Below, piece by piece: positions 23,541 to 52,857 of a stretch of DNA of 64,000 nt (the first letter of the stretch is position 1; each line of letters opens with the position of its first letter). The stretch comes from Octopus vulgaris (lineage: Eukaryota), in contig OX597820.1 of assembly GCA_951406725.2 (NCBI GenBank), positions 59,830,001-59,894,000 of the forward strand, given 5' to 3'. The notes beneath the pieces were generated by a model. It worked only from the letters and a program-made list of their open reading frames with translations. It was not told where the DNA came from and made no database searches. Both the position numbers and the translations under genes were made by a program.

Positions 23541-23709
23541 AGCCACTACACACATTTTTTTTCTCTCCTTGTTTTTTTCCGTGTCCCTTTCTGTAGAAGA
23601 GCGTAGGCTCGAAACGTAAGACTTTTTCTATTCCTGAGCGTTATACTAATACATCTGTTTTTGTACACCACCTGTCTTCGTCTTTTGTTTTTTTCCTAAA
23701 CTCTCCCTA
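23541..23709 (+). mobile_element. short repeat family H1 carrying a hammerhead-like motif, lodged in (TA)n
   Basis: cttt-ctgtaga-a-gagc-gtag-gctc-gaaacgta at 23587-23618, with (TA)n on both sides. Several other copies occur in the window. Confidence 0.7.
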
Positions 23710-23756
23710 TATATATATATATATATATATATATATATATATATATATAAATAAAC

Positions 23757-24147
23757 AGGCGCAGGAGTGGCTGTGTGGTAAGTAGCTTGTTTACCAACCT
23801 CATGGTTCCGGGTTCAGTCCCACTGCGTGGCACTTTGGGCAAGTGTCTTCTACTATAGCCTCGGGCCGACCAAAGCCTTGTGAGTGGATTTGGTAGACGG
23901 AAACTGAAAGAAGCCCGTCGTATATACATATATATATACGTGTGTGTGTTTGTGTGAGTGTGTTTGTCCCCCTAGCATTGCTTGACAACCGATGCTGGTG
24001 TGTTTATGTCCCCGTTCGGCAAAAGAGACCGATAGAATAAGTACTGGGCTTACAAAAGAATAAGTCCCGGGGTCGAGTTGCTGAATTAAAGGCGGTGCTC
24101 CAGCATGGCCGCAGTCAAATGACTGAAACAAGTAAAAGAGTAAAGAG
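23757..24147 (+). mobile_element. SINE family A
   Basis: Consensus match. Confidence 0.9.
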
Positions 24148-24230
24148 TATATATATGTGTGTGTGTGTGTGTGTGTATAAAACTATAAACTATATATATT
24201 TATATATATATACACGCACATCCCTATATT

Positions 24231-24445
24231 GTCCTTTCTACTATAGACACAAGGCTTGACATTTTGGAGGAGGGGGTCTAGTCGATTTCATCGACCTTAC
24301 AACTTGTCTGATACTTATTTTATTCATACTGAAAGATAAAAGGCAAATATGACCTCGGCATAATTTAAAATCAGAATGTAAAGACTGACGAAATGCCACG
24401 GAGCATTTCGTCCGGTGTGCTAACGATTCCGCCAGCTCTCCACCA
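24231..24445 (-). mobile_element. SINE family B, degenerate
   Basis: Reverse consensus match. Confidence 0.7.
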
Positions 24446-24914
24446 TGCGCATACATATATAATCTCATCTAGTGTGATTCAGACATGCAAATATTAATAT
24501 TAATATAAATAGTGCTGCTACACAACATACCTATGGATTTTGTATAGTGCCCTAGAATCATCAGCGAGGGAAAAGGGTTTTTTTTATTATACAGGAGCTG
24601 TAGTAGTAAGTTTGATGTAGGTAGGTTTTTTCTTTTCTTTTCTTTTTTTCTTTCACATTACATTTTAAAATTCTCTCACACGGAATATATGTGCAGTAAA
24701 TAGGAAACGGGTGTAATCACTCTCATTCTTAAATATATTGTTGATTCTATACACAACTATAGCTCTATCAACTGTGTCACTTAGCATAGTTGTTTCTTAA
24801 TATATATCTCAATGTATGCTTATATTGTAGAAACATTGAATAAAAAATACATAATGTAGAGCTTATAACATAAACGCCATGCTTGATCGCTGAATCCACA
24901 AGGTTTTTTAAATT

Positions 24915-25068
24915 ATCTCTTTGTTTATTTTCTCTTTTTCCTTTCTGTTGAAGAGCGTAGACTCGAAACGTAAAAAGACTTTCTCACTTTCCCGAGCGCC
25001 AAATTAATACACCAGCTTGTTGTTCATACACCTGTCATCGTCTTTTATTTTTCTGTAAATCTCAATTA
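24915..25068 (+). mobile_element. family H1 copy (hammerhead-like motif 24941-24976)
   Basis: cttt-ctgttga-agagcgtagactc-gaaacgta-aaaag plus the shared tail cctgtcatcgtctttt. Confidence 0.65.
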
Positions 25069-25154
25069 TAATATAATATAATGCATAACTGAATTTACTG
25101 GAAAATACACGTGGAAATACAAATATTTACATTATTATGAATTCTAATATTAAT

Positions 25155-50184: not shown

Positions 50185-50378
50185 TGTGGAAATTTATAGA
50201 AAAACAAAAGACGAAGGTAGGTGTAAGAACAACAAGCAAGTATTAGTTTGACGCTCGGGAAAAATGAAAAAGTCTTTTACGTTTCGAGCCTACGCTCTTC
50301 AACAGAAAGGAAGGAGAAAATAAACAGAGCGAGAGAGGGAGAGAGAGAGAGTAGAAAAATCATGTAGATTTCAACAGT
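50185..50378 (-). mobile_element. family H1 copy (hammerhead-like motif 50274-50309)
   Basis: Minus strand cttt-ctgttga-a-gagc-gtag-gctc-gaaacgta-aaag. Confidence 0.7.
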
Positions 50379-50385
50379 ATATATA

Positions 50386-51016
50386 GGCGCATGGTTCCGA
50401 GTTCAGTCCACTACGTGGCACTTTCGGCAAGTGTCTTCCGCTATAGCCTCGGGCCGACCAGAACCTTGTGAGTGAAGTTGCTAGAAGGAAACTGAAAAAT
50501 ACTTGTAACCCTCGTACTTATTCTATCTGTATCTTTTGCCGAACCGCTAGATTACAGGGGCATAAACACACAAACATTGGTTATCAAGTAATGGTGGGGG
50601 GGTCAAACACAGACACACAAATATATACATATATATATATATTTATATACATATATACATACATACATACATATATATATATATATATATATATATATAT
50701 ATATATATATATATATATTTCAATCATTTGACTGTGGCCAGGCAGGACTTATCTTTGTAACCTCGTACTTATTCTATCTGTATCTTTTGCCGAACCGCTA
50801 GATTACAGGGGCATAAACACACAAACATCGGTTGTTAAGTAATGGTGGGTGGAAAACACAGACACACAAATGTATACATGCATACATATATGTATGTATG
50901 TGTGTTTATGCCCCTGTAATCTAGCGGTTCGGCAAAAGATACAGATAGAATAAGTACGAAGGTTACAAAGATAAGTCCTGCTTGGCCACAGTCAAATGAC
51001 CGAAACAAGTAAAAGA
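50386..51016. mobile_element. rearranged SINE family A composite with direct and inverted duplications
   Basis: The block tcgtacttattctatctgtatcttttgccgaaccgctagattacaggggcataaacaca occurs twice directly (about 50512 and 50763) and once inverted (about 50900-50960). Confidence 0.8.
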
Positions 51017-51885
51017 ATATATATATATATATATATATATGTGTGTGTGTGTGTGTGTGTGTGTGTGTGTGTGTGTGTGTGTGTGTGTGTGTGTGTGTGT
51101 GTGTGTGTGTGTGTGTATGTATGTATATATATATATATATATATATATATATATATATATATCAAAGTGGAGGACAGATTTTCGTAGCTCAAATTCCTTT
51201 ATTGTGGGAATACAAAATACATAAAAATTTATTGAAATATTAGGTTTCAATCGCCCCAGTATTATAATCCCAAGAAAAGCAGTAGTACAAAACCTTACGA
51301 TCGTTTCGGAGAATGCGTTTGTATTGGGCGAATTTTTCAGCCAATACAAATAGTCGCATTTCCCACATCAGACGTACTAAAAATCGATTAAAATAGTTTT
51401 ACAATTTGAAAAAAATGCTAGTTTCTTTTTTTAAAAGTTCGTAAGGATATAGAAAAAGACGTTGTGAAGTGAAAAAAAGGTTGTGAAATAAAAATTAAAA
51501 TATTTGTAAAAATAAAATGACAGATGCTATATTGGATAAGAGAAAGGAATGAAGACTTATATACATACATACATACATACATACATACATACATACATAC
51601 ATACATACATACATACACACACACACACACACACACACACACACACACACACACACATATATATATATATATATATATATATATATATATATATATATAT
51701 ATAATAATAAATATTAGGGAATGAATCCAAAATTACAGGGAAAAATCAGATTTAGGGTTAAATCCAATTTTATAGTAAAATATTATATAATATAATTCGA
51801 GACAAAACCACTATTTTAAAACCAAACAAGGAAAGACTTAATCAATACATAAAATTTTAATATAAATTAAAAATTAAATAAACCG

Positions 51886-51929
51886 CCACTACAATTGTTT
51901 CATGTCTGCTACCGACATTCTTCAGGTGG
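51886..51929 (-). ncRNA. minimal type I hammerhead ribozyme motif
   Basis: CCAC-CUGAAGA-AUGUC-ggUAGCA-GACAU-GAA-ACAAUUGU-A-GUGG: intact core, 4-bp stem I, 5-bp stem II, palindromic stem III, GUA cleavage triplet. Confidence 0.85.
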
Positions 51930-52671
51930 ATTTTCGATCTTCTAATCAGTATCAAATTTTTATATATGCATATATACACACACATATGTACATAGGTATG
52001 CATATATGGGTACACACATATGTATATAGGTATGCATATATGGGTACAGGACGTCACACATCGTAAACATGAAATACGAAAATAACGTTGGGTAAGCAAA
52101 AAACAGGAGAATCAAATTGGAAAACAAGACAAGTAACATAAAAGGCAATCCTTCATCATAAAAGGCTGTCCTTCTACTCCTTATTTCGAGCAATGAACGA
52201 CAAGATAAGACTTTGAAGGCAGTGGCTCCCGCGAACCAAAATAAAATTTGGGATTTGCGGACGGTCAAAGTTGATAACAAAAACAGGATATACAACAAAC
52301 CAAACCAAACGAATACAAACAGGGAAGGCCGTTAGGCTCAGATGAGGTATGGTAGTGAATGCTGGAAGAAGATTATTTTAATAAGAAAAACGATAGGAGA
52401 GGAGACAGGAATGCGTCTGGACTGCACAACAGACTGAAAGAAAAGATAATCACGTGAGGAAAGGAGAGATGAACGATGGTCACGCGGGAGAGAGAGAGAG
52501 AGAGAGAGAGTAAAGGAGGAAGAGAGAGAGAGAGAGGGGCAGACAGATAGATAGAAAACAGGGAAGAGAAGGAAAAAAGAATTAGATAAAACTTACTTGG
52601 AAATGGATGTGTGGCGTTCAATTAAATAGTAATATAATATTATAAATATAAATAATATAAATATATATATC

Positions 52672-52857
52672 CCTAGACATTTTTCTCTCTCCGTTTTTTT
52701 TTTGTTCTCTTCATTTTTTCCCCTCTCAATCCTTTCTACTGAGGAGCGTAGGCTCAAAACGTCAAAGCCATTTCTATTCTTCCCGAGCGTCAAACAAATA
52801 CACCTGCTTGTTATTCCCTCGCCAGTTTTTGTCTTTTGTTTTCTGTAAATTTGAACT
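52672..52857 (+). mobile_element. family H1 copy (degenerate motif 52732-52767)
   Basis: cttt-ctactga-ggagcgtaggctc-aaaacgtc-aaag plus the shared tail. Confidence 0.65.

What the first reader, a model, noticed from the sequence alone, without database searches (positions are those of the whole stretch)
23541..52857. High-copy family H1 with a non-canonical hammerhead core (CUGUWGA)
Seen: copies at 23587, 24941, 26244, 41376 (truncated), 50274 (minus strand) and 52732, plus tail-only pieces at about 27917 and 56525. The shared fold is CUUU-CUGU(U/A)GA-A-GAGC-GUAG-GCUC-GAA-ACGU-H-AAAG. Five copies have U where the canonical core has A6, so the change is a family trait rather than decay. Nearly all copies end at (TA)n. 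Inference: this is a successful non-autonomous PLE-derived family amplified with a variant, possibly catalytically dead or dimer-dependent ribozyme. The fold might act as a recognition signal for the RT rather than as an enzyme.
Basis: partly seen in the sequence, partly recalled or inferred. Interest (0 to 1): 0.7.

Follow-up and report, generated by a model that had tools for sequence, protein, structure and literature searches.

The report
Active Penelope retrotransposon with altered hammerhead
The repeats are cut-short tail ends of a protein-coding, recently copied Penelope-type jumping gene whose small hammerhead RNA motif carries a U in place of a normally fixed A in about 96% of the copies counted; this likely makes it a slow cutter, and the element likely spreads mostly from uncut RNA.

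Summary
Observation confirmed; interpretation half right. The window holds eight H1 pieces. Genome-wide, 15,954 of 16,568 exact core matches have U at hammerhead position 6. H1 is not a separate non-autonomous family. It is the terminal repeat (pLTR) of an autonomous Neptune-clade Penelope-like element. 26 of 29 loci picked by its protein carry H1 downstream. Full pLTR-ORF-pLTR and tandem copies exist, are 99.6% identical, and 6 of 13 ORFs have no stop. Most copies are ~200-nt 5'-truncated inserts in (TA)n. Across four subfamilies, the 36-nt motif varies only at positions 7 and 17, the two free hammerhead positions, against 56 of 144 flank columns. Copies nearly always run through the cut site, so the copied RNA is likely uncut. 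Best reading: a weak, dimer- or protein-assisted ribozyme still under selection (0.5); the rival is a dead fold kept as a protein signal (0.3). Cleavage is untested. I found no natural A6U core in print, but one key paper was unavailable. The scan already noted altered PLE cores on other DNA of this genome. New variant of a known kind.

The parts
23541..23707 (+). 5'-truncated pLTR copy (CUGUAGA subfamily) between (TA)n runs; motif at 23587-23620 lacks 2 nt of stem I 3' strand
24875..25068 (+). Unit-length pLTR copy starting at CGCCATG; motif 24941-24977, CUGUUGA, one stem II mismatch
26146..26408 (+). Unit-length pLTR copy of the young subfamily that has intact ORFs, with two short internal duplications, (TA)n on both sides
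   Evidence: (96.7% over 183 nt to L134)
26245..26280 (+). Intact minimal type I hammerhead motif with U6: CUUU-CUGUUGA-A-GAGC-GUAG-GCUC-GAAACGU-U-AAAG; predicted cut after 26276
41260..41387 (+). 5' half of a copy, with about 40 nt of upstream 3'-UTR sequence, broken off inside stem II
41389..41432 (-). Inverted piece of the same family joined to the broken copy
50184..50381 (-). pLTR copy of an older subfamily; intact motif at 50309-50274, CUGUUGA, ends at (TA)n
52678..52859 (+). Decayed copy; motif 52732-52767 with core changes
56521..56617 (+). Tail-only piece that starts within 2 nt of the predicted cut site, after TATATA
27915..27987 (-). Tail-only piece starting downstream of the predicted cut site
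40971..41226 (+). Copy of a sister pLTR family with the canonical CUGAAGA core (motif 40986-41020), interrupted by a (TCTT)n run; natural A6 comparator

Best explanation
H1 is the terminal repeat of an autonomous, recently amplified Neptune-clade Penelope-like retrotransposon, and its minimal hammerhead, which has U at position 6 in about 96% of exact core matches, is likely a slow, dimer- or protein-assisted ribozyme that is likely still under selection but would not need to cut for the element to insert. Shown: the element is pLTR - ORF (RT, CX4CxxC linker, C-terminal GIY-YIG) - low-complexity 3' UTR - pLTR, in single and tandem copies; dispersed copies end about 90-104 nt past the predicted cut site at an internal TTATATAT that runs into genomic (TA)n; most copies are about 200 nt and begin within 90 nt upstream of the core. 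Inferred: the protein nicks (TA)n and starts reverse transcription at that internal site. When it starts in the downstream pLTR of a read-through transcript it gives ORF-bearing copies. When it starts in the leading pLTR of an RNA that begins near CGCCATG it gives the abundant ~200-nt copies. Both kinds span the cut site, so the template was uncut (or, for long copies, re-ligated). A weak core would favour that.
For: Linkage: L134, from an unbiased stretch, has the ORF end 600 nt upstream of H1. 26 of 29 further ORF-picked loci have H1 downstream on the same strand, 25 with U6 and 1 with the core deleted. 15 of 15 loci chosen for long frames have a 3' H1, 9 also a true 5' pLTR, and L201 is a head-to-tail tandem. 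Youth: 13 ORFs are 99.65% identical on average and 6 have no stop. Domains: RVT_1 E 1e-7, GIY-YIG E 0.007 (below cut-off), DKG, YIDD, CSRPRCRTC; RT motifs match the Neptune1_Ap rows of PMC8557442 File 1 by eye. Constraint: majority sequences of four subfamilies, from copies not picked by a core pattern (48, 26, 10, 5 copies), differ at 2 of 36 motif columns (positions 7 and 17) versus 56 of 144 flank columns, Fisher p 5e-5; against downstream gap-free columns only, 21 of 73, p 0.005. Position 17 was A, U or C, never G, in 99 copies with a base there of 101. Stem I terminal pair is C-G in H1 and G-C in the sisters. Ends: 108 of 123 non-ORF-picked copies start within 89 nt of C3; 124 of 177 end 90-104 nt past the site. 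Literature: A6C is slow but active (PMC3088659 passages; PMC7151607); a PLE hammerhead needs protein, is dispensable for insertion in vitro, and RT starts internally downstream of it (PMC11167929).
Against: No cleavage data. Pairwise mutagenesis of a hammerhead found low activity for all CUGA-turn mutants except the C-G swap (PMC9901934 passage). Stem II and even loop II are invariant within H1, so they show no covariation and fit a sequence-specific signal equally well. 5' ends at the cut site are not clearly enriched in H1 (23 at site, 29 upstream, 3 dropped, of 55 loci) and lean higher in the A6 sister (19 and 9 of 28), p 0.06; TA microhomology confounds both. One subfamily majority rests on copies chosen by overall similarity to a window copy, and one on only 5 copies. 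Low-complexity flanks inflate flank variation. The transcription start near CGCCATG is inferred only from the cliff in 5' ends. Only 1 of 40 loci of the UA, UC, UG and one CU core types had an ORF remnant within about 3 kb upstream.
Confidence: 0.5

Rival explanations
1. The motif is catalytically dead and is kept as an RNA signal that the RT/EN protein binds to position the internal start of reverse transcription about 100 nt downstream.
For: U6 is fixed across ORF lineages that are 65-83% identical in protein over short stretches. Loop II is invariant. The sister family has C4 in about 70 of 100 listed matches. Nearly all copies read through the site. Catalytic mutants insert normally in vitro in PMC11167929.
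Against: Only positions 7 and 17 vary, position 17 avoids G, and G5, G8, G12, A13, A14 and the C3-G8 pair are all kept. A binding site has no clear reason to follow the catalytic rules.
Confidence: 0.3
2. The U6 core is fully active in its own setting (dimer, protein or metal ion), cleaves and circularises tandem transcripts, and long copies come from circular templates.
For: A6C is rescued by Mn2+ (PMC7151607). More-than-unit copies with two pLTRs fit a circular template (model in PMC4209133). Some copies start at the site (window 56521).
Against: The short copies, which dominate, span the site and show a 5' cliff about 80 nt upstream of it, which a circle would not give. Site-starting copies number in the low hundreds against tens of thousands.
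Confidence: 0.1
3. The 36 nt are conserved at DNA level, as the internal promoter or endonuclease site of the pLTR, and the hammerhead look is inherited and no longer used. Short copies may also spread as solo-pLTR, SINE-like parasites.
For: The motif lies about 80 nt downstream of the inferred transcript start. PLE promoters lie in the pLTR (PMC6765202 passage). Other short boxes downstream are also invariant.
Against: The varying positions are those free in the ribozyme, and stem I covaries with the sister families.
Confidence: 0.1

Closest known systems
[quoted passage not shown]
   Same: U-rich lead, 4-bp helix I, extra nucleotide after A9, G10.1-C11.1 pair, GAAA, palindromic ACGU in place of helix III, location in both pLTRs, mass of dispersed single copies.
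   Different: Their consensus is CUGANGAH and the core variant named is U3-A8. Here position 6 is U in about 96% of matches. Their descriptor fixes the catalytic boxes, so it would likely miss this family.
Neptune-clade EN+ Penelope-like elements (Craig et al. 2021, PMC8557442; abstract, passages and supplement rows seen)
   Same: C-terminal GIY-YIG with CCHH residues, CX2-5CxxC linker, DKG motif, pLTRs, tandem and inverted copies, (TA)n targets; RT segments closely match Neptune1_Ap by eye.
   Different: The paper states that canonical hammerheads are universal in such PLEs; this family has a non-canonical core. The octopus entries seen in its table are Naiads, not this family.
PAc, Poseidon of Anolis (Frangieh et al. 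2024, PMC11167929; parts 1-2 of 4 read)
   Same: RT start internal and roughly 90-100 nt downstream of the hammerhead site, AT-rich target, uncut RNA as template.
   Different: PAc has an intact core, its ORF starts inside the motif, and RT starts without homology to the target. Here the ORF starts about 700 nt downstream and the 3' junction shares TTATATAT with (TA)n.
A6C hammerhead of phage Bcep176 (PMC3088659 passages; PMC7151607 parts 1-2 of 4)
   Same: Natural pyrimidine at position 6.
   Different: A single phage motif with C6 and measured low, Mn2+-favoured activity; here U6, minimal type I, tens of thousands of copies, untested.
Non-LTR retrozymes (PMC7229834 passages; bioRxiv 10.64898/2026.07.22.740005 part 1 of 5)
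   Same: Short, hammerhead-bearing, PLE-related repeats.
   Different: Retrozymes are non-coding tandem units; H1 short copies are dispersed pLTR pieces of a coding element.

Membership tests
EN+ Penelope-like element | Single ORF with RT and C-terminal GIY-YIG | tested here: met
   964-aa frame in L191; RVT_1 E 1e-7, GIY-YIG E 0.007 below cut-off, IYCISC..YIG motif; best database relatives carry the same domains
EN+ Penelope-like element | pLTRs and partial tandem or inverted copies | tested here: met
   9 of 15 long loci have 5' and 3' pLTRs; L201 tandem; inverted joins at window 41389, L030, L263
EN+ Penelope-like element | Retained spliceosomal intron | not tested
   No RNA reads were available to place one
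Neptune clade | CX2-5CxxC linker upstream of GIY-YIG | tested here: met
   CSRPRCRTC at residue 836
Neptune clade | RT groups with Neptune references in a tree | tested here: inconclusive
   No tree was built; RT segments resemble Neptune1_Ap and not Nematis rows by eye only
Neptune clade | (TA)n insertion preference | tested here: met
   14 of 15 long loci end at (TA)n, the 15th runs into the next unit; 159 of 177 copies have a TA-type run within about 140 nt past the site
Minimal type I hammerhead | Helix I, helix II, GAAA, palindromic helix III strand, UH | tested here: met
   stem II pair probability 0.5-0.99 in four H1 copies, stem I 0.2-0.7 in three
Minimal type I hammerhead | Consensus core C3 U4 G5 A6 N7 G8 A9 | tested here: not met
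   U6 in 15,954 of 16,568 exact matches; all other core positions kept
Minimal type I hammerhead | Self-cleavage after position 17 | not testable with these tools
   Genomic 5'-end proxy inconclusive; only contigs were available
Non-LTR retrozyme / non-autonomous element | No protein-coding master; tandem units of 200-400 nt | tested here: not met
   Coding masters found; short copies are dispersed, and the tandem unit is about 4.5 kb (L201)

The most novel reading that the evidence does not exclude
An actively spreading Penelope lineage has turned its hammerhead into a non-cutting RNA signal: the fold is dead as an enzyme yet almost invariant across diverged subfamilies because the element's protein reads it to set where reverse transcription starts. 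This would show that PLE hammerheads can be kept for recognition, not cleavage.
Probability: 0.3. Interest if true: 0.68.

Novelty: new variant of a known kind. Interest (0 to 1): 0.42.

Why it matters
What hammerheads do in Penelope-like elements is open (PMC8557442 calls it unclear; PMC11167929 finds cleavage dispensable in vitro). This genome offers a natural experiment: an intact, very young element with U6, rare natural A6 revertants in the same background, and sister families with C4 or canonical cores. It makes the question directly testable with a purifiable protein and a 36-nt RNA. It also shows that fixed-core searches likely undercount PLE hammerheads, here by an estimated 50,000 copies.

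Tried and rejected
Rfam scan: no hammerhead family among the 150 listed of 329 matches; 179 not shown. No PLE ORF in the window itself. A Pfam GIY-YIG search of the genome gave other PLE families: none of 30 loci had H1 downstream on the same strand; 18 of 30 carry a UUGAUAA (U3-A8) motif instead. A hidden A6 subfamily was rejected: the 20 A6 loci fetched (of 50) fall in several subfamilies, and non-U6 bases follow a mutation spectrum (first 100 of 614 by eye: C 70, A 20, G 10). Folding of natural U6, A6, C6 and sister motifs did not separate them; alternative core pairings are within about 0.4-2.6 kcal/mol for H1 motifs, and an alternative pairing with the downstream GAGCG box has probability under 0.2. 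Cut-site pile-up: inconclusive. Sequencing runs: no RNA holder listed; only contigs, which cannot show ends; the second read-laying run was not used. A coding partner for the C4 sister was not seen within 1.5 kb in 30 loci. The metagenome scan found one unrelated U6 motif (L276), single copy, no ORF. Print searches; 'A6U' had 0 occurrences in the 3 papers listed and in PMC11014351; an octopus repeat paper names Penelope-like families but no ribozyme (PMC13282606 passages). Lunse et al. (RNA Biol 14:1499), the paper most likely to list PLE core variants, is not held, so an earlier report of U6 there is not excluded. No covariation test such as R-scape was run; stem II is invariant and would give no signal.
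Full report
Observation. Five have U at position 6; the copy at 52732 is decayed. The window lies in a 2.8-Gb animal genome, likely an octopus from its repeats (recalled, not tested). A profile built from 39 copies finds 23 hits in 60 evenly spaced 10-kb stretches and none in the reversed DNA. Eleven are strong H1 copies, which scales to about 51,000 in the genome (95% range 26,000-92,000).

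U6 is a family trait. Exact patterns give 16,568 matches for CUGNNGA plus stem II and GAAACG, of which 614 are not U6; so 15,954 (96.3%) are U6. The canonical CUGAUGA form has 50 matches against 6,243 for CUGUUGA. The 20 A6 loci fetched belong to several subfamilies, and non-U bases look like ordinary mutation (first 100 rows by eye: C 70, A 20, G 10). A pattern anchored only on the flanks gave 213 matches; the first 100 have U 91, C 7, A 2 at position 6 (by eye). Position 7 takes all four bases and marks subfamilies.

What it is. One unbiased stretch (L134) has the end of a GIY-YIG-bearing ORF, a low-complexity 3' UTR and then H1. That protein has 144 listed matches in the genome out of 19,893 candidates. 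Of 29 further loci, 26 have H1 downstream on the same strand. I then picked 15 of the 144 for long open frames: all have a 3' H1 and 9 have a true 5' copy that continues into a 5' UTR; L201 is a head-to-tail tandem with a unit of about 4.5 kb. Thirteen ORFs could be delimited; they are 99.65% identical on average and 6 have no stop. [quoted passage not shown] Its RT segments match Neptune1_Ap in the supplement of PMC8557442 by eye; no tree was built. Window copy 26244 belongs to this young subfamily. Older subfamilies also have ORF remnants upstream (L008, L052, L053, L263; 65-83% identity over 20-110 aa), though only 1 of 40 loci picked for other core types showed one. So H1 is the pLTR of an autonomous element, and most copies are truncated inserts. 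Some spread from solo pLTRs is not excluded.

Is the fold under selection? Decay of single copies is not the right test; differences between subfamily masters are. I clustered 158 copies on flanks only and took majorities from copies not picked by a core pattern, for the four clusters with at least 5 such copies; a fifth cluster and small clusters were dropped. The motif varies at 2 of 36 columns, the flanks at 56 of 144 (p 5e-5; 21 of 73 for gap-free downstream columns, p 0.005). The two columns are positions 7 and 17, which are free in hammerheads (PMC7151607 gives the consensus), and position 17 was never G. Against this: stem II and loop II never vary, so they carry no covariation; the only compensatory change is the last pair of stem I between H1 and its sisters; flanks are low-complexity; one cluster was chosen by similarity to a window copy.

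How it likely works. Dispersed copies end 90-104 nt past the predicted cut site in 124 of 177 cases. In tandem units that point is an internal TTATATAT, and in 14 of 15 long loci it runs straight into (TA)n. This fits an internal start of reverse transcription, as shown for PAc (PMC11167929), here with short homology to the target (inference). 108 of 123 copies not picked by ORF begin within 89 nt upstream of the core, with a sharp drop just past CGCCATG; a transcript start there is the simplest cause, but it is inferred, and alignment limits between subfamilies may sharpen the drop. Almost all copies span the cut site, so they were copied from RNA that was uncut, or for long copies possibly re-ligated. 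I looked for copies that start at the site. In matched patterns, counted by eye on the first 100 rows: H1 23 at site, 29 upstream, 3 dropped as deletions or unclear (55 loci); the A6 sister 19 and 9 (28 loci); p 0.06. A looser pattern gave 6-7 of 36 loci at the site. TA microhomology confounds this, so it is inconclusive. Folding did not distinguish U6 from natural A6 copies. No raw RNA reads were available.

Activity. Published data say that changes at position 6 lower activity: A6C cleaves below 0.1 per minute and favours Mn2+ (PMC3088659, PMC7151607), and CUGA-turn mutants are low in pairwise mutagenesis (PMC9901934 passage). Minimal PLE hammerheads are already weak and work as dimers (PMC4209133), and the PAc motif needs protein and is dispensable for insertion in vitro (PMC11167929). 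I put 0.5 on weak but retained catalysis, 0.3 on a dead recognition signal, 0.1 on full activity in context and 0.1 on DNA-level constraint. Confidence in the element's identity is about 0.95.

Novelty. The element class and the motif class are known. I found no natural A6U core in searches or in the searchable supplement of PMC4209133 (one file not searchable), but Lunse et al. was not held. Notes from this scan on other DNA of the same genome report altered PLE cores with a similar reading; they are unchecked, came after my reading was set, and are not independent support. A sequence look-up and a look-up near this window found nothing. Verdict: new variant of a known kind, interest 0.42; its value is as a testable system for what PLE hammerheads do.

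Noticed in passing
window 40971-41226; L206-L235: Sister pLTR families share stem II and the downstream GAGCG box: 14,200 exact matches with a 3-nt loop, A6 in 98 of the first 100 and C instead of U4 in about 70.
   Followed up: partly
L077-L100 (18 of 30 loci), L145: A second young PLE family (781-aa frame, 27% identical to the H1 protein) carries a U3-A8 minimal hammerhead about 70-80 nt from its (TA)n end.
   Followed up: partly
window 23541-56617: Eight H1 pieces in 64 kb against about 1.4 expected from the 600-kb sample (Poisson p about 1e-4); unexplained local enrichment.
   Followed up: no
L276 2466-2494 (-): A minimal hammerhead with CUGUGGA core and a 5-bp stem I in an unrelated record; single copy, could be decay or an independent U6 family.
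   Followed up: partly
window 28167-28285 (-): Dispersed 5S rRNA copy, Rfam 94.8 bits, next to a SINE-like repeat.
   Followed up: no
window 58753-59528: Perfect palindrome with 388-nt arms, 99% complementary, no spacer.
   Followed up: no
window 7780-8322 (+): 180-aa frame that resembles a mariner transposase (resemblance recalled, not tested).
   Followed up: no
window 29261-30424 (+): Two frames that resemble a LINE reverse transcriptase (recalled, not tested).
   Followed up: no
window 3575-3959 and 55937-56322: Inverted pair of 386-nt repeats, 96.6% identical, 52 kb apart.
   Followed up: no
L086, L091, L074, L159 3' regions: Other PLE families show further hammerhead-like variants in their 3' UTRs, seen by eye only.
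   Followed up: no
L030 1500-1817; L263 2954-3240: Inverted H1 joins that switch strand inside the motif, at GAGCG-type or AACG microhomologies.
   Followed up: partly
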